From an uncultured Gammaproteobacteria bacterium (GTDB lineage: Bacteria > Pseudomonadota > Gammaproteobacteria > Pseudomonadales > Halieaceae), in contig CAWIZY010000007.1 of assembly GCA_963840725.1 (NCBI GenBank), positions 78,474 to 142,473 on the forward strand: a stretch of DNA of 64,000 bases, in the 5' to 3' direction. Shown one piece after another: positions 1 through 8,131 of the stretch. The stretch's first letter is position 1; every line of letters begins with the position of its first letter. The notes under the pieces were generated by a model. That model was not told the DNA's origin. It searched no databases and was given only the letters and a program-made list of their open reading frames with translations. The translations under genes and the position numbers were made by a program.

Positions 1-305
1 GCGGTTGTTCAACGCAGTTCGTCGATCACTGGCTCGCCTTGCTGGCTGACCGGGGCAGGCTTGAGGAGTTGTCACACAGGGTTGCGAACGACATGGTCGA
101 GTTTATCGAAGTGCAGAACCCACGAATGGTTATCTTCAATGAGTACGCAAGTTGGCGCCAGGAGAGCCGGGGTCTGGGTGATATCCACGGCGCCTGTATG
201 ACTCTACTGCGAACGCTTCGCGATGAACTGCGTCACCGATTACCCCGGGGTCGCTACGGGTGGCGAATAGAGAATCTGGCGAATGCCCATTGGCTGGTCA
301 GCTAG
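1..305 (+). CDS. 3' end of an upstream ORF (hypothetical protein), apparently the first visible gene of the TIR-like/macro/DUF4071 operon
   Basis: Frame 3 is open from base 3 to the TAG at 303-305, so the listed 88-aa ORF is only the tail of a longer protein that starts outside the window. It ends 5 nt before the ATG at 310. No family recognised. Confidence 0.45.
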   Translation, partial: GCSTQFVDHWLALLADRGRLEELSHRVANDMVEFIEVQNPRMVIFNEYASWRQESRGLGDIHGACMTLLRTLRDELRHRLPRGRYGWRIENLANAHWLVS

Positions 306-309
306 CCCC

Positions 310-1485
310 ATGGAGCCCGATAGCGCCAGGACCTGCTTTGTTATTATGCCGTTCGGTGTGAAACGCGACGCGGCGGGCACCGAAGTCGATTTTGATGCGG
401 TCTACGAGACGATTATCAGGCCGTCCGCCACCGGTCTCGGCTTTGCGCCTCTGCGATGTGACGAAATCCAGCGCGCCGGCTCTATCCATCGCGATATGTT
501 TCACCATATCGCCGTCGATGAATTGGCCATCGTTGATATCACCATGCTGAACCCGAACGTCTTTTATGAACTGGGCGTTCGTCATGCATTGCGGCCGTCT
601 ATCACTATTATGATGAAGCAACGGGACGTAGCAGTGCCTTTCAATATTCAGGGTCAGCGCCTGGTAGAGTATCCGCCGGTTGGAGAGGATCCGGCCCAGG
701 CGATAGCCGCAATCAAGGCATTCATTGAGGCAGGTGGTGAGTCATCCCGGCCGGACAGCCCGATTTTCAATATCCTTGCAGAGGCGCGCAAGGACTGGAA
801 AGCGGCCCGTATCGAAGAGACACGGCGTTATCGATACCGCCTTCGCAAGCAGCCGGAGAAGGAGATAGAGATCATTACCGGCGATATTCGACATCTGGAT
901 GGTATAGAGGTTTGGGTGAATTCTGAAAACACCAACCTGCAGATGTCGCGGTTCTTCGACCGTTCGCTCTCCGCCATGATTCGTTATGAGGGAGCGCTGA
1001 AAGATGACAACGGTGAAATTCAGCAGGATATCATTGCCGAAGAACTCGCGGCGAGCAAAGGGACGCGGGAATCAGTGTCGCCTGGATCGGTCTACGTTAC
1101 CGGGGCCGGTGCACTGGCGGCTACCCATGGCGTAAGAAAAATATTGCACGCGGCGACGGTGGTTGGTGCGCCCGGGACCGGTTATCAGTCGATGCCGGAG
1201 GTGGAGCGGTGTGTCGCCCGAGTTCTGCACAGAATGGATAAGTTGAGCACCGCAGAGCAGCCATTGCAGAGTGTTGTATTCCCGATGCTGGGAACTGGCG
1301 CCGGCGGTGGGTCTGTTTACGCTGTAGCCCCACGATTGCTGTCTGGCGCGATAGATTACCTGGTTCAGAATCCGGACAGCCAGGTAAACAGGGTCTGTTT
1401 CTCGGCGTGGAATCAGCGGGACCAGGAGGCCTGTTTGATGGCGCTCAGCACGATGCAAGAAATTGAAGCCATCCCGCATGGATAA
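310..1485 (+). CDS. Two-domain protein: N-terminal TIR-like/nucleoside 2-deoxyribosyltransferase-like domain plus C-terminal macro (ADP-ribose binding/processing) domain
   Basis: 391-aa ORF from ATG 310; the alternative ATG at 283 overlaps the upstream stop. The N-terminal ~170 aa ('CFVIMPFG..DFDAVYETIIRP..LAIVDITMLNPNVFYELGVRHAL') has the layout of TIR-like/deoxyribosyltransferase-like Rossmannoid domains. The C-terminal ~200 aa carries macro-like motifs 'ITGDI..IEVWVNSENTNL', 'VTGAGAL..KILHAATV' and 'VVFPMLGTGAGGG'. Domain calls are by eye, not by HMM. Confidence 0.65.
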   Translation: MEPDSARTCFVIMPFGVKRDAAGTEVDFDAVYETIIRPSATGLGFAPLRCDEIQRAGSIHRDMFHHIAVDELAIVDITMLNPNVFYELGVRHALRPSITIMMKQRDVAVPFNIQGQRLVEYPPVGEDPAQAIAAIKAFIEAGGESSRPDSPIFNILAEARKDWKAARIEETRRYRYRLRKQPEKEIEIITGDIRHLDGIEVWVNSENTNLQMSRFFDRSLSAMIRYEGALKDDNGEIQQDIIAEELAASKGTRESVSPGSVYVTGAGALAATHGVRKILHAATVVGAPGTGYQSMPEVERCVARVLHRMDKLSTAEQPLQSVVFPMLGTGAGGGSVYAVAPRLLSGAIDYLVQNPDSQVNRVCFSAWNQRDQEACLMALSTMQEIEAIPHG

Positions 1486-1589
1486 TCAGCGCCAGCATAA
1501 GCTGTCCGGTACCCGGGCCAGCGGCCACTCGGGTGCCGGGTGCGGCCCTCGCGCTTGGGAAGCGGGGCGCTGTCCACCGCAACTGCACT

Positions 1590-2948
1590 ATGAATAAACC
1601 GATCTGCCTGGTGGTGTTTCCGGTGGGTCAGTCCGATGACAGCCCACTGGACAGGAGCCACTTTGACCGTGTCTTTGAGCGCGCTGTCGGGCCCGCCGCA
1701 GAGGCCATGGGCATGCTGGCGATCAGGGCTGACGATTCTATGGTCTCCGTAACCGGCGGTTCAGTGTTACTCGATCAACTGGCCCTGGCTGATTTCGCCC
1801 TGATTGATGTCAGTGCCGGTGGCGCGCGGGCGCTGTATAGTCTCGGTGTCCGGGCGGCATTGCACGCGGGGAGCAACCAGCTGATGTTCGCCGAGACTCA
1901 CCCGCCCGGGTTTGCTGTCGATACGCAGGATGCGGTGCGTTACCGGCAAAACTCAGAGGGCGAATTTGGCGAGGCAGAGGCAGTCAGCCTGCGGGTCGCG
2001 TTGCAGCGCCGGATGCCAACGCAGTTCGGAGGGGCCGGTCGCCAGGGTGGGGCAGACAATCCTCTCGCCCGGCTGCTACTGCCCTGGCGCCCGCCGCTGA
2101 TCGCCCGCCTGAAGACCGATGTGTTTCGTGATCAGGTGGTCTACTCACATGTCTTGAAAGAGCGCTTGGCAGGCGCGCGTCAAGAGCGCGACTTCGATGC
2201 ACTGGCGCAGATTGAACGCGAGCTCGGTGACATGGGCGGGATCGAAACTGCGCTGCTCGTCGATCTTCTCTTGTCGTATCGGGCAGTTGACGCCTGGCAG
2301 GGTATGGTCGACCTGGTATCGCGCCTGCCGGCCCTGGTGCGCGCCACCGTGCTGGTGCGTGAACAACTGGGTTTTGCGCTCAACCGCCTGGGGCGGGGTG
2401 AGGAGGCACTCGCCGTATTACAGACAGTACTCGATGAACAGGGTCCCAGTTCCGAGACCTGCCCCCTGATAGGACGAGTCTACAAAGACCGGTGGCTGGC
2501 GGCGCGGCAGGCAGGTGATGCAGAGGCGGCCGCAGTGGCGCTGGATCGAGCCATCAGCGCCTATGTCAGCGGGTTTGAGGCTGACTGCAGAGATTCGTAC
2601 CCCGGTATCAATGCCCTTACTTTGTTAGACCTGCGTGGAGATGCCGGGTCACAGGCACAAAAGCAACGGCTGTTACCCATCGTGGCCTATGCGGTTGATC
2701 GCCGTATTGGCTCCGGTGATGCCGATTACTGGGACTATGCAACCCGTCTTGAGCTGTCGGTGCTGGCCGATGACGCCACCGCCGCTGAGCTCGCCCTGGC
2801 GGATGCGTTGCTGCAGGTGCGGGAATCCTGGGAGCCGAAAAATACGCTGGGTAATCTTTGCCTGATACGCGCTGAACGTCGAATCCGCGGCGACCACCAG
2901 GCCTGGCTGGATGACATCATTGTGCAGTTGGAAAGGGCTTCAAGCTAG
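1590..2948 (+). CDS. DUF4071-like (MAP3K TRAF-binding-like/TPR helical repeat) protein with an N-terminal TIR-like/deoxyribosyltransferase-like domain
   Basis: 452-aa ORF from ATG 1590; an in-frame upstream start at 1533 is possible. The N-terminus ('ICLVVFPVG..FDRVFERAVGP..FALIDVSAGGARALYSLGVRAAL') is paralogous to the N-domain of the preceding gene, with the Glu of YELG replaced by Ser. The helical C-terminal half with 'DSYPGINALTLLDL' resembles DUF4071 proteins. Confidence 0.6.
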   Translation: MNKPICLVVFPVGQSDDSPLDRSHFDRVFERAVGPAAEAMGMLAIRADDSMVSVTGGSVLLDQLALADFALIDVSAGGARALYSLGVRAALHAGSNQLMFAETHPPGFAVDTQDAVRYRQNSEGEFGEAEAVSLRVALQRRMPTQFGGAGRQGGADNPLARLLLPWRPPLIARLKTDVFRDQVVYSHVLKERLAGARQERDFDALAQIERELGDMGGIETALLVDLLLSYRAVDAWQGMVDLVSRLPALVRATVLVREQLGFALNRLGRGEEALAVLQTVLDEQGPSSETCPLIGRVYKDRWLAARQAGDAEAAAVALDRAISAYVSGFEADCRDSYPGINALTLLDLRGDAGSQAQKQRLLPIVAYAVDRRIGSGDADYWDYATRLELSVLADDATAAELALADALLQVRESWEPKNTLGNLCLIRAERRIRGDHQAWLDDIIVQLERASS

Positions 2949-3057: not shown

Positions 3058-3441
3058 ATGAGTTTCAGTATTACATTGACCCCGCGCTTCTATGAGACCG
3101 ACGCGCTCGGACATATCAATAACGCCGCTATCGCCGCCTGGTTTGAAGTGGTGCGTATCGGCTGGTTGGAATCGCTCACGGGCAGTGCGGTCGGGATCGA
3201 CAAGAACTGGGTCCTGGCGTCGCTCAAGCTGGATTTCGTCGCCGAGACGTTTTACGGCTCAGACGTCACCGCTAGCGTGACGGATGCCAGCGTTGGCAAT
3301 AGCTCACTGACTGTGCATTGCGAAATGTCTCAGAACCAGCGGATTACGGTGCGGGGAACGGCGGTGCTGGTGCATTTGAACCTGCAGACCAAGGAAACCC
3401 TGCGGATTGCTGACAGCCTGCGCAAACAGCTGCCTCAGTAG
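3058..3441 (+). CDS. Acyl-CoA thioesterase, hotdog fold (4HBT/YbgC-like)
   Basis: 127 aa from the internal ATG at 3058. 'RFYETDALGHINNAAIAAWFE' is the typical 4HBT thioesterase N-terminal motif. The ORF-track start at 2911 would add an unlikely 49-aa leader overlapping the previous gene. Confidence 0.75.
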   Translation: MSFSITLTPRFYETDALGHINNAAIAAWFEVVRIGWLESLTGSAVGIDKNWVLASLKLDFVAETFYGSDVTASVTDASVGNSSLTVHCEMSQNQRITVRGTAVLVHLNLQTKETLRIADSLRKQLPQ

Positions 3442-3488
3442 CCTCATTTGCGGTCTGCTGGGCCGCTGGATCTGCCGCGTCCCGGGTA

Positions 3489-4250
3489 TTACGCTCCCAG
3501 GGCGCGCCGGTAGGCCGCGACGGCACTGGCCAGGCCGATGCTCAGCGCGTCCACCGTGAGTGCATGTCCGATGGAGACCTCCAGGAGTCCGGGAACAGCG
3601 GCAAACCGCGGCAGGTTGTGCAGATCGAGGTCGTGACCAGCGTTTAATCCCAACCCCTCTTCGGCGGCCACTTCTGCGGCGATAAGGTAGCGACGGAATA
3701 CGGCGTCGATCGCTGTATTGGTGCTGCAGGCGCGGGCGTAGGCCTCGGTGTACAGCTCAATACGATCGGTGCCGGTCTGCGCTGCCAATCGGATCTGTTC
3801 GGGGTCAGGGTCCATAAATAAGCTGGTCCGAATGCCCAGCGCCTGCAGCTGGCTTACCAGGGGCGCGATCCGGTCGCCGTCCCGTTTGAGGTCAAAGCCG
3901 TGGTCGGAGGTTAGCTGTCCGTCTCCGTCAGGCACCAGCGTGCACTGTGTGGGCCGTATCTCACTGACCAGTGCAAGGAAACCCGGATAGTCGCTAACGC
4001 CGCGTCTGTCGCTGGCACGTGGCCCGGTGAAGGGATTGCCCTCAATATTAAACTCCACCGCCAGAGCAGCGGCCAGGTCAAAGCAATCCTGCACTCTGAT
4101 GTGGCGCTGGTCGGGACGCGGGTGGACGGTAATGCCCTCTGCGCCAGCCTCCACACAGATACGGGCATGGCGGGGAATGTCCGGATTAGTGGTGTCCCGG
4201 GAATTGCGAATCAGGGCGATCTTGTTCAGATTGACGCTGAGGGCAATCAC
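3489..4250 (-). CDS. pdxJ: Pyridoxine 5'-phosphate synthase
   Basis: 253 aa. 'LSVNLNKIALIRNSR', 'ITVHPRPDQRHI' and 'IELYT..YA' are PdxJ-like, and the length is typical. Confidence 0.9.
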   Translation of the reverse strand: MIALSVNLNKIALIRNSRDTTNPDIPRHARICVEAGAEGITVHPRPDQRHIRVQDCFDLAAALAVEFNIEGNPFTGPRASDRRGVSDYPGFLALVSEIRPTQCTLVPDGDGQLTSDHGFDLKRDGDRIAPLVSQLQALGIRTSLFMDPDPEQIRLAAQTGTDRIELYTEAYARACSTNTAIDAVFRRYLIAAEVAAEEGLGLNAGHDLDLHNLPRFAAVPGLLEVSIGHALTVDALSIGLASAVAAYRRALGA

Positions 4251-4819
4251 AGCAAGCTCTTGCGTACGATCTCGAGAATGACAATGGGCTCGGTGGGGAC
4301 ATCGCTGTAAGGGCCCAGTTTCTGCACCGGCGCAGAGGCAATGAAGTCCACTACGTTCATGCCCTCTGTGACCTCACCGAACACGGTATAGCCCTCCTGG
4401 CCGGGCTGCCAGTCCAGTTGCAGATTGGTGCGCTGGTTGATGAAGAACTGGGCAGTAGCGGAATCGGGGTCGTTGAGGCGTGCCATCGCGATGGTGCCGC
4501 GTACATTGTGCAATTTGTTCCTGGATTCGTTAGCTATCGGCTCCCCGACCTCCTTTTCACTCATGTCCGGCATAAAGCCGCCACCCTGAATCATAAAGTT
4601 GGAGATGACGCGGTGAAAGATAGTGCCATTGTAGTGGCCGCTATCAACGTATTTGAGAAAGTTCTCCACGGTGACAGGCGCCTTGTCGCGAAACAGCCGC
4701 AGATGAAAATCGCCGTTGTTTGTCCTTATAGTGACCTGTGGGTTGGGTAGGCCAGTGTCTGCCGCCGCAGCCACCCCGGGCATAAGCAGGGCCGCGCCCA
4801 GCAGTAGTAGTTTCAGCAT
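4247..4819 (-). CDS. ppiA: Periplasmic cyclophilin-type peptidyl-prolyl cis-trans isomerase
   Basis: Start placed at 'MLKLLLLGAALLMPGVAAAAD' (signal peptide; ATG 4819). 'FHRVISNFMIQGGGF' is the cyclophilin signature. Confidence 0.9.
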   Translation of the reverse strand: MLKLLLLGAALLMPGVAAAADTGLPNPQVTIRTNNGDFHLRLFRDKAPVTVENFLKYVDSGHYNGTIFHRVISNFMIQGGGFMPDMSEKEVGEPIANESRNKLHNVRGTIAMARLNDPDSATAQFFINQRTNLQLDWQPGQEGYTVFGEVTEGMNVVDFIASAPVQKLGPYSDVPTEPIVILEIVRKSLL

Positions 4820-4838
4820 TGTGTTAATCGCTCCTGAG

Positions 4839-5528
4839 TCAGGCCCAACTGGAGCCGCCGCGGCGCCGTGGCCACAGTCTAGGCACCACCAGGGTGATAA
4901 TGACGCCAAGCAATACCGCCAGGGCGCCGTTGATGAAGGCTTCGCTATCCAGCTTGTCTTGCAGCCGCAGGTTCTCCGCTTCGAGCATTTCTACACTGGA
5001 TCGCAGCATCTCCGACTGCTCCACCAGTCGGCGGTTGTTGGCGTCCAACTGTATTGCATCGCCGGAGATCTGTTTGATGGCGGCAAGTTCATCATTGATG
5101 CTGTTGAATTCCACGCCGGTCGTCTCGAGTTGCTCACGCAGGGCATCACGCTCGGCGGTCAGGGCCGCCAGCTGCTGGTCGAAGGCGGCCTTCTCCAGCC
5201 CGAGTTCTTCAGCACGTGCGATCGCAGCATCCAGGCGCATTTTGGCCGGTAGCTCTCGCATGAGGTACTGGGTGCGAATCCAGCCCGTATTGCCCTTTGG
5301 CGTTGTGACTTCCGCCCAGACCTTGTCTTTAGAGGTGCGTGCGATTTTCAGTCGTGTGCCGGAGGGGATGCCACGGTGAATAACCCGGTAATCGCCGCCT
5401 GCACCGCTACGCAGCGGGATATATTGAACGTCGCTGACGTAACGGATGTCCTGGGCCCGGGTCACAGGGCTCCAGGTGAACGCCAGTGACAGGGCGAGCA
5501 GCAAGGGGAGCAAGTCGCGTCGCAACAT
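4839..5528 (-). CDS. SH3 domain protein of the TIGR04211/YgiM type (signal peptide, SH3, coiled coil, C-terminal TM)
   Basis: 229 aa. It has a signal peptide, 'YVSDVQYIPLRSG..GWIRTQYL' (SH3b), a long coiled coil and a C-terminal TM helix. Confidence 0.75.
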   Translation of the reverse strand: MLRRDLLPLLLALSLAFTWSPVTRAQDIRYVSDVQYIPLRSGAGGDYRVIHRGIPSGTRLKIARTSKDKVWAEVTTPKGNTGWIRTQYLMRELPAKMRLDAAIARAEELGLEKAAFDQQLAALTAERDALREQLETTGVEFNSINDELAAIKQISGDAIQLDANNRRLVEQSEMLRSSVEMLEAENLRLQDKLDSEAFINGALAVLLGVIITLVVPRLWPRRRGGSSWA

Positions 5529-5599
5529 GGAGTGTCCGATGGTTTTCTGCCAATGAATGGGGCGGTATTGTACCGGAAGTTTGCGCCGCTGTGCGTATG

Positions 5600-5899
5600 T
5601 TAAGGCAGCACCGGTTTGAATGGTTTGACGGTAACCCGGGTAAAAACGCCGGCTTCCACGTAGGGGTCCGCATCCGCCCAGGCCGTTGCTGCCTCCAGGC
5701 TGTCGAATTCAGCAATGATCAGGCTGCCGGTAAAGCCGGCCTCACCCGGGTCCGGTGTATCCGCTGCCGGATGCGGCCCGGCGGCAAGTACCCGGCCGGC
5801 CTCGACCAGTAACTGGATTCGAGCCAAGTGTGCGGGTCTCGCTCGCTGGCGCAGAGGCAGGCTGTTTTCCACGTCTTCGCAGAGTATGGCGTAGTACAT
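5600..5899 (-). CDS. yciI: YciI family protein
   Basis: 99 aa. '[10 protein letters not shown]...RPAHLARI..L...G' has the YciI-like layout, and the gene is adjacent to yciB. Confidence 0.85.
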
Positions 5900-5908
5900 A
5901 TACGGGCC

Positions 5909-6496
5909 TTATTTTTCGGTCACTTCCTGTTCTTTCAGGTGCGGCGACACCAGCACCGCAGTGAGTACTGTCAGCAGCAGGGTGAATCCAATAGCAGAAT
6001 ACAGTTTATAACTCACCCAGGTGGCTTCGCTGAATGAGTAAGCAACGTAGAGGTTGAGGGCGCCGACTATGGCAAAATTGCTGACCCATAACCAGTTGAG
6101 TCGACTCCATACAGGCCCCGGCAGTTGCAATTGACTTCCCAGCGTGCGTTCCATGAGGTTTTTTTCACCGACAAACTGTGACGCGCCGAAGACGAGCGCC
6201 AGTGCCCAATTGAAAATGGTCGGCTTCCACTGGATAAAAACCTGATTGCGAAATACCAGCGTAGCGCCACCGAACAGCACCACAGCCGCCAGCATCCAAA
6301 GCAGGCGTTTCTCCAACTTGCGCGTGAGTGCCCAGGTGATAGCCACCTGAATCACGGTCGCTGTCATCAATACGGCGGTGGCGGTAAAAATACCGTCAAA
6401 GGTGTATTTCCAGTCTCCCAAGTGCACCGTCTCGCCGTCCAGCTGATAGACGATAAAGAACAGGGCGATAGGAACGAACTCAAGTAATTGCCGCAT
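5909..6496 (-). CDS. yciB: Intracellular septation protein A (YciB/IspZ)
   Basis: Start placed at 'MRQLLEFVPIALFFIVYQ' (ATG 6496). Polytopic membrane protein of about 195 aa. Confidence 0.85.
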   Translation of the reverse strand: MRQLLEFVPIALFFIVYQLDGETVHLGDWKYTFDGIFTATAVLMTATVIQVAITWALTRKLEKRLLWMLAAVVLFGGATLVFRNQVFIQWKPTIFNWALALVFGASQFVGEKNLMERTLGSQLQLPGPVWSRLNWLWVSNFAIVGALNLYVAYSFSEATWVSYKLYSAIGFTLLLTVLTAVLVSPHLKEQEVTEK

Positions 6497-6610
6497 GGCA
6501 GATGATCGGCTCCGGCATGTTATCATGCGTGTTTGCTAGGTGGATGCGCAAAGATAGCCGGAACCGCACACGATGGCAAAGCCAATTAACCGAAGTCGAG
6601 GTCCCGTGAC

Positions 6611-7480
6611 GTGTTGATCGATTTACATACCCATAGCACTGCCTCCGATGGAGCGTTGACGCCGGTTGAACTGGTCGAACGTGCCATTGCGGCGAACGTG
6701 GAGCAGTTGGCTATCACTGACCACGACTGTGTGAACGGGTTTGTGGCTGCGCAAGCGTACTGCAGAGACCGGAATCCGACCCTGCGACTGGTGCCCGGGG
6801 TTGAGTTCTCCTGTCGTTGGTCCGGCACGACCATCCATATCCTGGGGCTGGGTATGATGGTGGAGCACCCCGCCATGGAAGAGGGGCTGGCGGTGCTCGC
6901 ACGCGCAAGAATCGACCGCGGTGAGAAGATCGGAAAGCGCCTGGCGAAGCTCGGCTTTGCCGGCGCGCTGAATGGCGCTCAGGCCCTGGCCGGGTCCAGT
7001 CAGCTGGGTCGGCCACATTTTGCCGACTGGATGGTGGCGCAGGGACATGTTGCAGACGCTCAGGAGGCTTTTGAGCGCTATCTTGGTCAGGGTAAAACGG
7101 GCGATGTGAAAGCCTTCTGGCCGGAGTTGGCCGACGCGGTGAGTTGGATTACCAATGCCGGTGGTGTGGCGGTGGTTGCCCACCCGCTGAAATACCGATT
7201 CACCCGCGCAAAGCTGCGACGACTGATTGCTGACTTTGTCGCGGCGGGCGGAGCAGGGGTAGAGGCGATATCGGGTCGTCAGGCGACCGGCCAGCTTTCC
7301 GGGCTGCTGCGGCTGGCGGCGGAGTTCGACCTGGAAGTATCGGCGGGCAGTGACTTCCATCGCGACAGCACCTACGGTGCCGACCTGGGCGTCGATGTGT
7401 CATCGCTGCGACGCGCTAAGGGGATTTGGGAGCGCTGGAGCGAGTCACCACTTCCCGAGCGGGTGATGGCCAGACAATAA
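6611..7480 (+). CDS. PHP-domain phosphoesterase (TrpH/YciV, RNase AM-like)
   Basis: 'IDLHTHSTASDGALTP' is the PHP motif. 289 aa, GTG start. Confidence 0.8.
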   Translation: MLIDLHTHSTASDGALTPVELVERAIAANVEQLAITDHDCVNGFVAAQAYCRDRNPTLRLVPGVEFSCRWSGTTIHILGLGMMVEHPAMEEGLAVLARARIDRGEKIGKRLAKLGFAGALNGAQALAGSSQLGRPHFADWMVAQGHVADAQEAFERYLGQGKTGDVKAFWPELADAVSWITNAGGVAVVAHPLKYRFTRAKLRRLIADFVAAGGAGVEAISGRQATGQLSGLLRLAAEFDLEVSAGSDFHRDSTYGADLGVDVSSLRRAKGIWERWSESPLPERVMARQ

Positions 7481-7507
7481 CAACAGAACAATAACGGACA
7501 ACAGAAC

Positions 7508-8131
7508 GTGAGCCAGTTTTTTCAGATACACCCCGACAACCCCCAGTCGCGTCTGATCCGTCAGGCCACGGATATCGTGCGAGCGGGCGGCGTGCTGGTC
7601 TATCCGACGGACTCAGCCTATGCCCTGGGTTGCCAGATTGGTAACAAAGGGGCAGTTGACCGCATCCGGCGGATCCGTAAGCTTGACGATCGCCACAATT
7701 TTACCCTGGTTTGTCGAGACCTCTCCGAGATCGCCGTCTATGCCAAGGTCGATAATGCCGCTTATCGCCTGCTCAAACACGCTACCCCCGGCCCCTATAC
7801 CTTTATCCTCAAGGCGACTTCGGAAGTGCCGCGGCGATTAATGCACCCAAAGCGCAAAACAGTGGGTTTGCGAGTACCGGAGAATCGGATCGCTCAGGCA
7901 TTGCTGGAGGATATGGGTGAGCCACTGATGAGTGTCACGCTTGTGATGCCCGGCGACGAGTACCCGTTGATAGACCCTTACGATATTCGCCAGACGCTGG
8001 AGCATGACGTGGACCTGGTCATTGATGGTGGTTACTGCGGTATGGAGCCGACGACTGTTGTCGACCTCGCCGATGAGACACCGGTAATGCTGCGGGTCGG
8101 CAAGGGAGATCCCGCGCCTTTTGAGGGTTGA
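7508..8131 (+). CDS. Sua5/YciO/YrdC family (L-threonylcarbamoyladenylate synthase-like, YciO type)
   Basis: 207 aa. 'GGVLVYPTDSAYALGC' and 'PGPYTFIL' are YrdC-fold motifs. Confidence 0.85.
   Translation: MSQFFQIHPDNPQSRLIRQATDIVRAGGVLVYPTDSAYALGCQIGNKGAVDRIRRIRKLDDRHNFTLVCRDLSEIAVYAKVDNAAYRLLKHATPGPYTFILKATSEVPRRLMHPKRKTVGLRVPENRIAQALLEDMGEPLMSVTLVMPGDEYPLIDPYDIRQTLEHDVDLVIDGGYCGMEPTTVVDLADETPVMLRVGKGDPAPFEG

What the first reader, a model, noticed from the sequence alone, without database searches (positions are those of the whole stretch)
1..2948. Operon pairing two paralogous TIR-like/deoxyribosyltransferase-like domains with a macro domain and a DUF4071/TPR module: candidate nucleotide-signalling conflict system
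Seen in sequence:
- Three tightly packed same-strand ORFs (upstream ORF stop at 305, ATG 310; stop at 1485, ATG 1590), the first truncated by the window edge.
- Genes 2 and 3 open with the same domain layout: 'CFVIMPFG...DAVYETIIRP...LAIVDITMLNPNVFYELGVRHAL' versus 'ICLVVFPVG...FDRVFERAVGP...FALIDVSAGGARALYSLGVRAAL'.
- The conserved Glu of YELG is Ser in gene 3, suggesting one catalytic and one degenerate copy.
- Gene 2 ends in a macro-like domain ('ITGDI..VWVNSENTNL', 'VVFPMLGTGAGGG').
- Gene 3 ends in a helical-repeat region with 'SYPGINALTLL', typical of DUF4071.

Established knowledge: TIR and deoxyribosyltransferase-like Rossmannoid domains process NAD or nucleotides. Macro domains bind or hydrolyse ADP-ribose derivatives. 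Such combinations recur in anti-phage systems, for example Thoeris-type TIR producers with ADPR-derivative-sensing effectors.

Inference: this is an NAD/ADPR-centred immunity or toxin-type module. It does not match any named system architecture I recognise, and it sits next to plain housekeeping genes (thioesterase, pdxJ).
Basis: partly seen in the sequence, partly recalled or inferred. Interest (0 to 1): 0.75.

Follow-up and report, generated by a model that had tools for sequence, protein, structure and literature searches.

The report
NAD/ADP-ribose-type conflict gene cluster
The left edge of the window carries part of a horizontally spread gene cluster built from nucleotide-cleaving, ADP-ribose-binding and nucleotide-sensing domains, most likely an uncharacterised relative of Thoeris-type anti-phage systems that lacks the usual TIR gene.

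Summary
Gene 2 (310-1485) has an N-terminal N-glycosidase-like domain of the DNPH1/MilB ("DRHyd") type with all catalytic motifs intact, followed by a macro domain. Gene 3 (1590-2948) has a paralogous but degenerate copy of that domain, followed by a DUF4071/TPR-S helical sensor. This architecture matches the N-terminal half of human ASK1 and the phage-defence proteins BcTpr and ThsI (type VIII Thoeris effector).

The conserved unit is a triad:
- a SLOG-fold protein, just outside the window;
- a methyltransferase-like protein (gene 1, cut by the window edge);
- gene 2.

The triad was found in 7 of 8 independent contexts, from Gammaproteobacteria to Frankia and a Bacteroidales-like contig. A DUF4071 gene adjoins it in 4 of 8. 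Only in this lineage has the DUF4071 gene lost its catalytic Asn and Glu. Its sensor half is still under strong purifying selection.

No TIR gene is present. No PADLOC model matches the system, and I found no description of the triad in the accessible literature. Function is inferred, not shown. I rate it a new variant of a known kind.

The parts
1..305 (+). 3' end (last 101 codons) of gene 1, a methyltransferase-like protein that is the second member of the conserved triad. The full-length gene is 214 aa in the identical public contig L001:1024-1668.
   Evidence: Translation. The full gene was recovered in L001. It is conserved next to gene-2 homologues in 7 of 8 contexts. Class-I methyltransferase-like motifs (VVEIGPGF, LVEPN, VDxLxxNHxxDDL) are visible in alignment A6. 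Pfam matches are only sub-threshold: Methyltransf_23 in 5 of 26 members with best E = 0.0055, and Methyltransf_25 in 3 of 26.
310..1485 (+). Gene 2, a 391-aa two-domain protein (alternative start ATG 283 gives 400 aa): N-glycosidase-like (DRHyd) domain plus macro domain.
   Evidence: ORF list. At least 1631 homologues of about 390 aa exist, including in Frankia, Amycolatopsis and Bacteroidales at 49-63% identity. The AF2 model has pLDDT 87.5. dN/dS against the orthologue in L169 is 0.08.
325..800 (+). Gene 2 N-terminal Rossmannoid domain (about residues 6-165), DRHyd / nucleoside 2-deoxyribosyltransferase-like, with catalytic motifs intact.
   Evidence: The AF2 secondary structure is an alternating strand-helix pattern. 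The domain is homologous to the N-domains of canonical DUF4071 proteins at E = 1e-29 to 1e-36. The best PDB hits of profile A5 are DNPH1/Rcl (E = 0.055-0.8) with the catalytic YELG in register, followed by ASK1 8qgy. PADLOC model PDLC00733 'Effector TIR' matches residues 29-115 at E = 6.4e-7. dN/dS is 0.046.
550..576 (+). Motif NPNVFYELG (residues 81-89), the predicted active site.
   Evidence: N81, N83 and E87 are invariant in 27 family members. The equivalent residues N82 and E86 of BcTpr are reported as essential for NAD+ depletion, cADPR-isomer formation and phage defence.
856..1482 (+). Gene 2 macro domain (about residues 183-391), carrying GDI (874-888), VNSEN (916-936) and GTGAGG (1291-1308).
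   Evidence: Pfam PF01661 scores above its gathering cut-off. phmmer finds PDB macro domains TTHA0132 and MacroD1. Foldseek gives target-normalised TM-scores of about 0.8 to macroH2A, Af1521, OiMacroD, YmdB and MacroD2.
1590..2948 (+). Gene 3, a 452-aa protein: degenerate DRHyd domain plus DUF4071/TPR-S helical sensor. The architecture is that of the ASK1 N-terminal half and of BcTpr/ThsI.
   Evidence: Pfam PF13281 E = 2.4e-39 and PF20308 E = 1.9e-24. ASK1 structures 8qgy and 5ulm match at E = 1e-8 and 1.5e-7. At least 3914 homologues exist.
1590..2100 (+). Gene 3 N-terminal domain, a paralogue of the gene 2 N-domain that is predicted to be catalytically dead.
   Evidence: phmmer paralogy. Four family motifs are lost: MPFG to FPVG, GxIHxxM to TGGSVLL, NxNVFYELGVRH to GGARALYSLGVRA, and PFD..R to GFAVDT.D. 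dN/dS is 0.35, which is relaxed but not neutral.
1818..1847 (+). GGARALYSLG, the degenerate counterpart of NPNVFYELG. Ser84 replaces the catalytic Glu, and both Asn residues are lost.
   Evidence: Glu is present in 115 of the 120 closest homologues.
2130..2945 (+). Gene 3 helical TPR-S / DUF4071 region. The Pfam TPR-S core covers residues 236-346, equal to 2295-2627, and includes SYPGINALTLL at 2595-2627.
   Evidence: Pfam. It aligns with the ASK1 central regulatory TPR region. dN/dS is 0.10 against the L169 orthologue.

Best explanation
The region is the right-hand part of a mobile NAD+/ADP-ribose-type 'nucleotide-centric' conflict locus, most probably anti-phage.

Its conserved core is a triad:
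- a SLOG-fold protein (215 aa, divergently transcribed, about 0.4-1.1 kb beyond the window's left edge);
- a methyltransferase-like protein (gene 1);
- gene 2, an intact DNPH1/MilB-type N-glycosidase (DRHyd) domain fused to an ADP-ribose-binding macro domain.

In this lineage the triad has recruited gene 3. Gene 3 belongs to the DRHyd-TPR-S family (DUF4071, the ASK1 N-terminal type, which includes BcTpr and the type VIII Thoeris effector ThsI). Its glycosidase domain has been inactivated, while its TPR-S sensor half is kept under strong selection.

Proposed working (inferred, not shown). The gene 2 glycosidase cleaves the nicotinamide-ribose or a related N-glycosidic bond, and so makes or consumes an ADP-ribose-type molecule. 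Its macro domain holds the ADP-ribose moiety. Gene 3 acts as a non-catalytic nucleotide sensor and regulator. It may pair its dead DRHyd domain with the live one of gene 2, since DNPH1- and NDT-type domains work as dimers. The SLOG and methyltransferase-like proteins bind or modify the nucleotide ligand. No TIR protein takes part.

Shown: the domain identities, the paralogy, the loss of catalytic residues, the conservation of the triad, the recurrent DUF4071 adjacency and the selection pattern.

Inferred: the substrate, the direction of signalling, the heterodimer, and the immune role.
For: Domains:
- Gene 2 macro domain.
- Gene 2 DRHyd-like N-domain with invariant N81, N83 and E87.
- Gene 3 DUF4071/TPR-S and similarity to ASK1.
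- The upstream 215-aa protein folds with pLDDT 92. Most of its listed Foldseek matches, and all of the confident ones, are SLOG-superfamily proteins: Moco carrier protein, LOG, PpnN/YgdH and TRPM MHR1/2. A few low-probability matches to unrelated enzymes (APS kinase, ATP sulfurylase, DAHP synthase, pantothenate synthetase) are mixed in.

Paralogy of the two N-domains.

Dead copy: gene 3 lacks the Asn and Glu that are reported as essential in BcTpr.

Selection: dN/dS is 0.046 for the gene 2 N-domain, 0.10 for the gene 3 TPR-S half and 0.35 for the gene 3 N-domain.

Triad conservation: 7 of 8 independent contexts at 49-86% gene-2 identity, across Gammaproteobacteria, Frankia/Parafrankia, Amycolatopsis, a Bacteroidales-like contig and others.

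DUF4071 adjacency: 4 of 8 contexts, in different positions and orientations.

NUDIX link: a NUDIX gene lies between gene 1 and gene 2 in Frankia. NUDIX is fused to gene 2 in P0074. It lies directly upstream of four more distant DRHyd-macro genes.

Conflict-type neighbours elsewhere: TIR-STAND, RES, NB-ARC and SLATT; nSTAND-WD40; TPR-S-patatin and TIR-FGE-sulfatase; a transposase.

Family precedent: TIR + DRHyd-TPR pairs defend against phage. ThsB-type TIR genes lie next to DUF4071 genes in at least 6 of 125 loci, and in one viral contig.
Against: - There is no experiment on any member of the triad.
- No PADLOC model hits gene 1 or the SLOG protein, and only one single-domain model hits gene 2.
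- In this window and in L085 the cluster lies between ordinary housekeeping genes, and GC content is unremarkable.
- Three Chloroflexi/Anaerolineae genomes (L004, L005 and L014) keep NUDIX and DRHyd-macro next to recR, which looks like a stable chromosomal arrangement.
- The DRHyd assignment of the N-domain rests on sub-threshold PDB matches (E = 0.055 or worse) plus motif register. There is no Pfam hit.
- Macro loop 1 (the usual GGG) is replaced, so ADP-ribose binding is not certain.
- The methyltransferase assignment for gene 1 is weak.
- The proposed heterodimer and substrate are pure inference.
Confidence: 0.45

Rival explanations
1. Two independent systems sit side by side. Gene 3 is a decaying or orphaned ThsI/BcTpr-type (type VIII Thoeris-like) effector that lost its TIR partner and its catalytic residues. 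The triad is a separate module. Their adjacency only reflects the clustering of defence genes.
For: Nearly all DUF4071 genes sampled (about 120 of 125 loci) have no DRHyd-macro neighbour. The triad occurs without DUF4071 in L085, L087 and L174, and the NUDIX fusion in L255 stands alone. The gene 3 N-domain is degenerate and evolves faster: 61% identity against 92% for the gene 2 N-domain.
Against: DUF4071 is adjacent in 4 of 8 independent triad contexts. In two of these (the window and L172) it lies directly downstream on the same strand, with a gap of about 100 bp or less and no terminator-like site. The TPR-S half has dN/dS 0.10 and even the dead N-domain has 0.35, so the gene is maintained. 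The four-gene order is kept in the orthologous locus L169.
Confidence: 0.17
2. The triad is an immune off-switch or buffer rather than a producer or effector. Macro, NUDIX, SLOG/LOG-like and DRHyd activities degrade ADP-ribose-derived second messengers such as cADPR. This sets the firing threshold of TPR-S-sensor systems or protects the cell from self-intoxication.
For: Macro, NUDIX and SLOG domains are described as ADP-ribose-derivative processors (PMC9503650). NUDIX is repeatedly linked or fused to gene-2 homologues. The triad lies beside TPR-S sensors with their own effectors, such as patatin, in L082.
Against: The triad stands alone in several genomes with no TPR-S or TIR gene within 6-7 kb. 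The glycosidase active site is the most strongly conserved part of the locus (dN/dS 0.046), which fits a primary enzymatic role as well as it fits a clearing role.
Confidence: 0.15
3. This is housekeeping or accessory nucleotide metabolism: a salvage or sanitation cluster. It would combine DNPH1-like removal of aberrant (deoxy)nucleotides, LOG/PpnN-like nucleotide nucleosidase, macro/NUDIX clearance of ADP-ribose and its phosphate or acetyl derivatives, and a small-molecule methyltransferase. It would have no role in conflict.
For: The closest solved relatives of each domain are metabolic enzymes: DNPH1, LOG and PpnN/YgdH, and MacroD and YmdB. The flanks are housekeeping genes here and in L085, and recR in Chloroflexi. 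PADLOC gives no system-level hit.
Against: The distribution is patchy. Gene 2 shares 55-63% identity between Gammaproteobacteria, Actinobacteria and other phyla, which suggests horizontal transfer. The cluster is repeatedly adjacent to TPR-S sensors, patatin, TIR, STAND, SLATT and transposase genes. The DRHyd-TPR-S family has experimentally tested defence members.
Confidence: 0.15
4. This is a toxin-antitoxin pair of the DarT-DarG or sirtuin-macro kind. An NAD-consuming toxin would be neutralised by a macro-domain antitoxin.
For: The macro domain is next to an NAD-type enzyme domain. Two-gene sirtuin-macro toxin-antitoxin-like systems are known (PMC9503650).
Against: No DarT/ART or sirtuin domain was found. 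The macro and the putative toxin domain lie in one polypeptide. The conserved unit has three genes.
Confidence: 0.04

Closest known systems
Type VIII Thoeris (ThsB TIR + ThsI 'CMP hydrolase + TPR'; Yirmiya et al., bioRxiv 10.64898/2025.12.03.692087)
   Same: Gene 3 has the ThsI architecture: an N-glycosidase-like domain plus the TPR predicted by Burroughs and Aravind. ThsB-type TIR genes lie next to DUF4071 genes in my sample. The known signal is canonical cADPR, an NAD-derived nucleotide.
   Different: There is no TIR gene in the window or in L001/L169. The gene 3 hydrolase domain has lost its catalytic Asn and Glu. The partners here are a DRHyd-macro protein, a SLOG-fold protein and a methyltransferase-like protein. 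I could not compare with ThsI sequences directly, because the IMG identifiers are not retrievable with these tools.
BcTir/BcTpr of Bacillus cereus (Liu et al., bioRxiv 10.1101/2023.05.26.542521)
   Same: BcTpr has a MilB-like glycosidase N-domain plus a C-terminal TPR. Its contact residues (I10, M11, N80, P81, N82, E86) correspond to the IMPFG and NPNxxxE motifs that the gene 2 N-domain shares with canonical DUF4071 proteins.
   Different: In the window those residues are intact in gene 2, which carries a macro domain instead of a TPR. They are lost in gene 3, which carries the TPR. There is no TIR partner.
Human ASK1/MAP3K5 N-terminal half (thioredoxin-binding domain + central TPR region; PDB 8qgy, 5ulm)
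   Same: It is the best solved-structure match of gene 3 (E = 1e-8). The match includes the N-domain segment ADIAVVEMS..FYHLGVRESF, which aligns with ADFALIDVS..LYSLGVRAAL. Both lack the catalytic Glu: His in ASK1, Ser in gene 3.
   Different: ASK1 continues into PH, kinase and SAM domains, whereas gene 3 ends after the TPR-S region. ASK1 is regulated by thioredoxin and TRAFs. Nothing comparable is known for gene 3.
Type II Thoeris (TIR + macro-domain effector sensing His-ADPR; PMC11204291)
   Same: A macro domain is used in an NAD-derived nucleotide immune pathway.
   Different: There the macro domain is fused to a membrane effector and a TIR makes the signal. Here the macro domain is fused to a glycosidase-like domain, no transmembrane segment is evident, and no TIR is present.
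DNPH1/Rcl, MilB and nucleoside 2-deoxyribosyltransferases
   Same: These give the best remote sequence matches of the N-domain profile, with the YELG catalytic Glu in register. The fold is Rossmannoid.
   Different: The E-values are sub-threshold and no Pfam Nuc_deoxyrib_tr hit was found. The extra conserved motifs (MPFG, RxDE, GxIHxxM, PFN..R) define a separate family that gene 2 shares with DUF4071 proteins.

Membership tests
Macro domain (PF01661) - gene 2 C-terminal half | Profile match above the curated cut-off | tested here: met
   28.6 bits against a cut-off of 22, E = 1.5e-6.
Macro domain (PF01661) - gene 2 C-terminal half | Macro fold | tested here: met
   AF2 pLDDT is about 90 over the domain. 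Foldseek gives target-normalised TM-scores of 0.75-0.83 to macroH2A, Af1521, OiMacroD and YmdB.
Macro domain (PF01661) - gene 2 C-terminal half | ADP-ribose-contacting motifs (GDIT-type Asp, NxxN, two Gly-rich phosphate loops) | tested here: inconclusive
   GDI, VNSEN and GTGAGG are conserved, but the first Gly-rich loop (usually GGG) is replaced by RF(Y/F)DRSLSA. Binding and hydrolysis cannot be tested here.
DRHyd / nucleoside 2-deoxyribosyltransferase-like superfamily (DNPH1, MilB, NDT) - gene 2 N-domain | Significant profile or sequence match to a member | tested here: inconclusive
   There is no Pfam hit even at E = 10. Profile A5 against PDB puts DNPH1/Rcl first, but at E = 0.055-0.8.
DRHyd / nucleoside 2-deoxyribosyltransferase-like superfamily (DNPH1, MilB, NDT) - gene 2 N-domain | Catalytic Glu at the start of the helix after strand 3, in a (Y/I)ELG-type motif | tested here: met
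   E87 in NVFYELG is invariant in 27 sequences. It aligns with the YELG Glu of DNPH1 and corresponds to E86 of BcTpr.
DRHyd / nucleoside 2-deoxyribosyltransferase-like superfamily (DNPH1, MilB, NDT) - gene 2 N-domain | Structural match of the isolated domain to NDT, DNPH1 or MilB | not tested
   Macro-domain hits filled the 50 Foldseek rows shown for the full-length model. The domain could not be submitted alone.
TIR domain | Match to TIR profiles (PF01582, PF13676, DUF1863-type ThsB) | tested here: not met
   There is no Pfam TIR hit for gene 2 or gene 3. The only signal is a partial match of gene 2 residues 29-115 to PADLOC PDLC00733 'Effector TIR' at E = 6.4e-7. ThsB-type TIR queries hit nothing in the window.
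DUF4071 / MAP3K_TRAF_bd + TPR-S (DRHyd-TPR-S, ASK-N type) - gene 3 | Profile matches PF13281 and PF20308 | tested here: met
   E = 2.4e-39 and 1.9e-24. ASK1 structures match at E = 1e-8.
DUF4071 / MAP3K_TRAF_bd + TPR-S (DRHyd-TPR-S, ASK-N type) - gene 3 | Intact N-terminal glycosidase motifs (MPFG, NxNVFYELGVRH) | tested here: not met
   All are degenerate in gene 3 and in its orthologue P0122. Glu is present in 115 of 120 relatives.
Type VIII Thoeris | Adjacent ThsB TIR gene that makes the signal | tested here: not met
   No TIR was found in the 64-kb window, in L001 or in L169.
Type VIII Thoeris | ThsI effector with a functional hydrolase domain, activated by cADPR | tested here: not met
   The architecture is present but the catalytic residues are lost. 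The cADPR response cannot be tested here.
SLOG superfamily - upstream 215-aa protein (L001:276-923, outside the window) | SLOG/LOG-type Rossmannoid fold | tested here: met
   AF2 pLDDT is 92. Foldseek hits include Moco carrier protein (E = 6e-5), LOG types I and II, PpnN/YgdH and TRPM MHR1/2, with query-normalised TM-scores of 0.42-0.55. There is no Pfam or PDB sequence match.
Class I SAM-dependent methyltransferase - gene 1 | Profile or structure match; motifs I, post-I and IV | tested here: inconclusive
   The motifs are visible (E-IGPGF, LVEP, VDxLxxNH). Pfam gives only sub-threshold methyltransferase hits in 5 + 3 of 26 members. The PDB profile search found none.
DarTG-type toxin-antitoxin | DarT/ART toxin gene next to a macro antitoxin gene | tested here: not met
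   No ART or DarT domain was found in any of the genes.

The most novel reading that the evidence does not exclude
A TIR-less, Thoeris-like pathway. A DRHyd-type enzyme belongs to the same superfamily as ADP-ribosyl cyclases. Here it would replace TIR as the maker, or the regulated consumer, of the NAD-derived nucleotide. A catalytically dead DRHyd-TPR-S protein would serve purely as sensor and scaffold by pairing with the live paralogue. This would be a bacterial counterpart of the inactive DRHyd + TPR module that regulates ASK1 kinases. The SLOG and methyltransferase-like partners would create a chemically new (for example, methylated) ADP-ribose-derived messenger.
Probability: 0.15. Interest if true: 0.8.

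Novelty: new variant of a known kind. Interest (0 to 1): 0.6.

Why it matters
Thoeris-type immunity is currently defined by TIR enzymes that make NAD-derived signals. This locus brings together the other two branches of the same enzyme clade (DRHyd and SLOG) with a macro domain and often a NUDIX hydrolase, but no TIR.

The gene 2 family has at least 1,600 members across several phyla. No experiment on it, and no match in the PADLOC or Pfam libraries beyond the macro domain, could be found here. If the family is defensive, it adds a widespread TIR-independent route to NAD/ADP-ribose signalling or depletion.

The live and dead paralogue pair also gives a tractable bacterial model for how the inactive DRHyd + TPR module of human ASK1 kinases could have arisen and how it might work.

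Tried and rejected
- **NCBIfam:** no hits for any of the three window proteins.
- **PADLOC:** nothing for gene 1 or the SLOG protein.
- **Pfam on the isolated N-domains:** no hit, so no Nuc_deoxyrib_tr or TIR call was possible from Pfam.
- **Profile searches against PDB sequences:** only chance-level hits for the SLOG protein (A2) and for gene 1 (A3 and A6).
- **Pattern-based scans of genome contigs and metagenome contigs:** They returned mainly canonical DUF4071 genes and distant DRHyd-macro genes, not the close gene-2 relatives. The co-occurrence tally therefore rests on eight hand-picked contig look-ups, not a census.
- **Foldseek of the full gene 2 model:** only macro hits appeared in the rows shown, so the N-domain fold could not be compared separately.
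- **Literature:** the key comparative paper (Burroughs and Aravind 2020, J Bacteriol e00365-20) and Burroughs et al. 2015 (NAR) are not held. I cannot exclude that the triad is listed in their supplements.
- **Organism identification:** cluster look-ups returned no names.
- **Viral contigs and plasmids:** no full-length gene-2 homologue in either, so I rejected a phage-encoded counter-defence reading.
- **Foreign-island signature:** I rejected this because the GC and GC3 of genes 2 and 3 are close to the window average.
- **Operon signals:** the promoter and terminator scans were uninformative.

Full report
**1. What is in the sequence**

Three same-strand ORFs occupy window positions 1-2948, exactly as described.
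- An ORF runs off the left edge and stops at 305.
- Gene 2 spans 310-1485. An in-frame ATG at 283 is the start called in public assemblies.
- Gene 3 spans 1590-2948.

All quoted peptides are present. The next genes are a 4HBT thioesterase and pdxJ. No promoter-like site was found, and no terminator-like site on the coding strand (the single terminator-like match lies on the opposite strand inside gene 3). GC content is close to the window mean.

**2. Domain identities**

*Gene 2, C-terminal half.* This is a macro domain. Pfam PF01661 scores above its cut-off. phmmer finds solved macro domains. The AF2 model (pLDDT 87.5) matches macroH2A, Af1521, MacroD2 and YmdB with target-normalised TM-scores of about 0.8.

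*Gene 2, N-terminal half.* No Pfam or NCBIfam model recognises about the first 165 residues. The family alignment shows very strong conservation of MPFG, RxDE, GSIHxDM, VDIT..NPNVFYELGVRHAL and PFN..R. The AF2 model gives an alternating strand-helix Rossmannoid pattern.

A profile of this domain places DNPH1/Rcl N-glycosidases first among all PDB sequences, followed by ASK1. The catalytic YELG glutamate is in register, although the E-values are sub-threshold at 0.055-0.8. PADLOC gives a partial match to a 'TIR' effector model at E = 6e-7. I therefore call the domain DRHyd / deoxyribosyltransferase-like rather than TIR.

*Gene 3.* It matches PF13281 (DUF4071/MAP3K_TRAF_bd, E = 2e-39) and PF20308 (TPR-S, E = 2e-24). 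Its best solved relatives are the human ASK1 structures 8qgy and 5ulm.

**3. Paralogy and degeneracy**

The two N-domains find each other by phmmer at E of about 1e-8 and align motif by motif.

Canonical DUF4071 proteins have N-domains that resemble gene 2 (E = 1e-29 to 1e-36) more than they resemble gene 3 (E = 1e-10 to 1e-22). Of the 120 closest gene-3 homologues, 115 carry NxNVFYELGVRH. Only gene 3 and its 73%-identical orthologue P0122 have ...ALYSLGVRA. They have also lost the MPFG, GxIHxxM and PFD..R motifs.

In the homologue BcTpr, the residues corresponding to the second Asn and the Glu (N82 and E86) are reported to be essential for NAD+ depletion, cADPR-isomer formation and phage defence (bioRxiv 10.1101/2023.05.26.542521). 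Gene 2 keeps both and gene 3 has neither.

Gene 3 is not a pseudogene. I computed pairwise dN/dS against the orthologous locus L169:

| Region | dN/dS |
|---|---|
| Gene 2 N-domain | 0.046 |
| Gene 2 macro domain | 0.10 |
| Gene 3 TPR-S half | 0.10 |
| Gene 3 dead N-domain | 0.35 |

**4. The missing upstream part and the real conserved unit**

An identical public contig, L001, extends 1363 bp to the left of the window. It shows three further features.
- Gene 1 is 214 aa in full.
- A 215-aa gene is transcribed divergently.
- Beyond that lies a DUF7379 + alpha/beta-hydrolase gene. It is complete at 831 aa in the orthologous contig L169.

The 215-aa protein has no Pfam or PDB sequence match. It folds confidently (pLDDT 92). 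Most of its listed Foldseek matches, and all of the confident ones, are SLOG-superfamily proteins: Moco carrier protein, LOG, PpnN/YgdH and TRPM MHR1/2. A few low-probability matches to unrelated enzymes are mixed in. Its invariant GGGxxAAxE lines up with the LOG-type PGGxGTxxE motif. That comparison is from my own reading and was not tested.

Gene 1 has class-I methyltransferase-like motifs, but the profile support is only sub-threshold.

I looked up eight independent contexts of gene-2 homologues at 49-86% identity.

| Context | Triad (SLOG + gene 1 + gene 2) | Adjacent DUF4071 gene | Notes |
|---|---|---|---|
| Window / L169 | yes | yes, downstream on the same strand, degenerate | same four genes and the same 4HBT neighbour in L169 |
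| L082-84 | yes | yes, upstream on the opposite strand | also TPR-S-patatin and TIR-FGE-sulfatase |
| L085/86 | yes | no | between housekeeping genes |
| L087/88 (Parafrankia/Frankia) | yes | no | NUDIX gene between gene 1 and gene 2 |
| L172 | yes | yes, downstream on the same strand | transposase adjacent |
| L173 | yes | yes, two copies upstream | nSTAND-WD40 neighbour |
| L174 (Amycolatopsis) | yes | no | TIR-STAND, RES, NB-ARC and SLATT neighbours |
| L255 | no | no | gene-2 homologue fused to NUDIX; only 662 bp of contig lie upstream |

The triad assignments were confirmed by phmmer and hmmsearch. In every context other than the window lineage, the adjacent DUF4071 copy keeps the catalytic Glu.

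More distant DRHyd-macro proteins (29-47% identity) lack the SLOG and gene-1 partners. Four of them have a NUDIX gene directly upstream.

**5. Relation to known systems**

TIR + 'CMP hydrolase and TPR' pairs are type VIII Thoeris. They signal through canonical cADPR (bioRxiv 10.64898/2025.12.03.692087). That paper attributes the prediction of the TPR's role to Burroughs and Aravind 2020.

I searched my 125 DUF4071 loci with the published type VIII ThsB TIR sequences. TIR genes lay within 200 bp of the DUF4071 gene in six loci, and within 2.5 kb in four more. One viral contig carries TIR-DUF4071-TIR. So the gene 3 family is, with good probability, the ThsI/BcTpr family.

The window has no TIR, and gene 3 lacks the hydrolase residues. 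It therefore fails membership of type VIII Thoeris on both defining points.

I found no description of the SLOG + methyltransferase-like + DRHyd-macro triad in the papers I could read. It has no PADLOC match either. The two Aravind-group comparative papers most likely to mention it are not held.

**6. Mechanism**

*Shown.*
- An intact, very strongly conserved glycosidase-type active site is fused to a macro domain.
- A co-located dead paralogue is fused to a conserved TPR-S sensor.
- SLOG-fold and methyltransferase-like partners are conserved.
- NUDIX is recurrently linked or fused.
- Conflict-type genes are recurrent neighbours.

*Inferred.* The locus handles an NAD+/ADP-ribose-type nucleotide. 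Gene 2 would be the enzyme, either making the signal or depleting a pool. Gene 3 would be a non-catalytic sensor and regulator, possibly through DRHyd-DRHyd pairing. The SLOG and gene 1 proteins would bind or modify the ligand.

*Rivals.* Each is scored in the report sections: chance adjacency of two systems, an immune off-switch, plain nucleotide salvage, and a toxin-antitoxin pair.

**7. Verdict**

The main correction is to the unit: it is a triad plus an optional DUF4071 partner, not a gene pair. Gene 3 belongs to a family that has tested defence members.

I rate it a new variant of a known kind, namely the NAD/ADP-ribose nucleotide-centric conflict systems. Interest is moderate to high. 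The gene-2 family is large, its members are cross-phylum, no experiment on them could be found here, and the locus contains a natural live and dead paralogue pair that mirrors ASK1.

Noticed in passing
L001:3-71 (-) and L169:3-2498 (-), just left of the window: An 831-aa DUF7379 + alpha/beta-hydrolase (LCAT/PGAP1-like lipase) gene lies downstream of the SLOG gene on the same strand in both orthologous contigs. Its first 23 residues are 100% identical between them, while the neighbouring genes are 75-86% identical. It could be a lipase-type effector of the locus. Compare the TPR-S-patatin gene in L082.
   Followed up: partly
L082:651-2876 (-) and L082:7493-8926 (-): A TPR-S + patatin phospholipase protein (741 aa) and a TIR_2 + FGE-sulfatase protein (477 aa) flank the triad and a canonical DUF4071 gene in this metagenome contig.
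   Followed up: partly
L175:620-2943 (IMG/VR contig IMGVR_UViG_3300028571_002339): A viral or prophage contig carries a DUF4071 gene flanked on both sides by type VIII ThsB-like TIR genes. This looks like a type VIII Thoeris-like cassette on a mobile element.
   Followed up: partly
L176-L254 (viral contigs), e.g. L183:5941-6675: More than 70 prophage or viral contigs encode stand-alone proteins of 150-250 aa that have the same N-glycosidase-like domain with an intact NPNVFYELG motif and no macro or TPR-S domain. Their role is unknown.
   Followed up: no
L002:2-1390 (+), Gemmatimonadota MAG: Upstream of a DRHyd-macro gene, one ORF joins the C-terminal part of a gene-1-like protein (E = 3e-17) to an APH-type phosphotransferase domain (E = 1e-22). 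This hints that the gene-1 family acts on a small molecule that can also be phosphorylated.
   Followed up: no
L004, L005 and L014 (Anaerolineae/Chloroflexia MAGs): The arrangement NUDIX, DRHyd-macro, then recR (convergent) is conserved in three genomes. This is a stable chromosomal setting that fits a housekeeping reading better than a mobile one.
   Followed up: partly
L017:9995-11431; also L054, L057 and L067: Some loci carry additional DRHyd-only genes in tandem with, or next to, a DUF4071 gene. Pairing of two DRHyd paralogues therefore recurs outside the window lineage.
   Followed up: no
plasmid records H1-H15, e.g. Rhizobium etli CIAT 652 CP001076.1:15364-15822: DUF4071 ('TRAFs-binding domain-containing protein') genes are common on large Rhizobium, Agrobacterium, Vibrio and Aliarcobacter plasmids. 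No DRHyd-macro gene was found on any plasmid.
   Followed up: no
window 3058-8131: Downstream of the locus the genes look like ordinary gammaproteobacterial housekeeping genes: 4HBT thioesterase, pdxJ, a cyclophilin-type peptidyl-prolyl isomerase, an SH3 protein, a YCII protein, IspA/YciB, a PHP (TrpH-like) protein and a YciO/Sua5-type protein.
   Followed up: no
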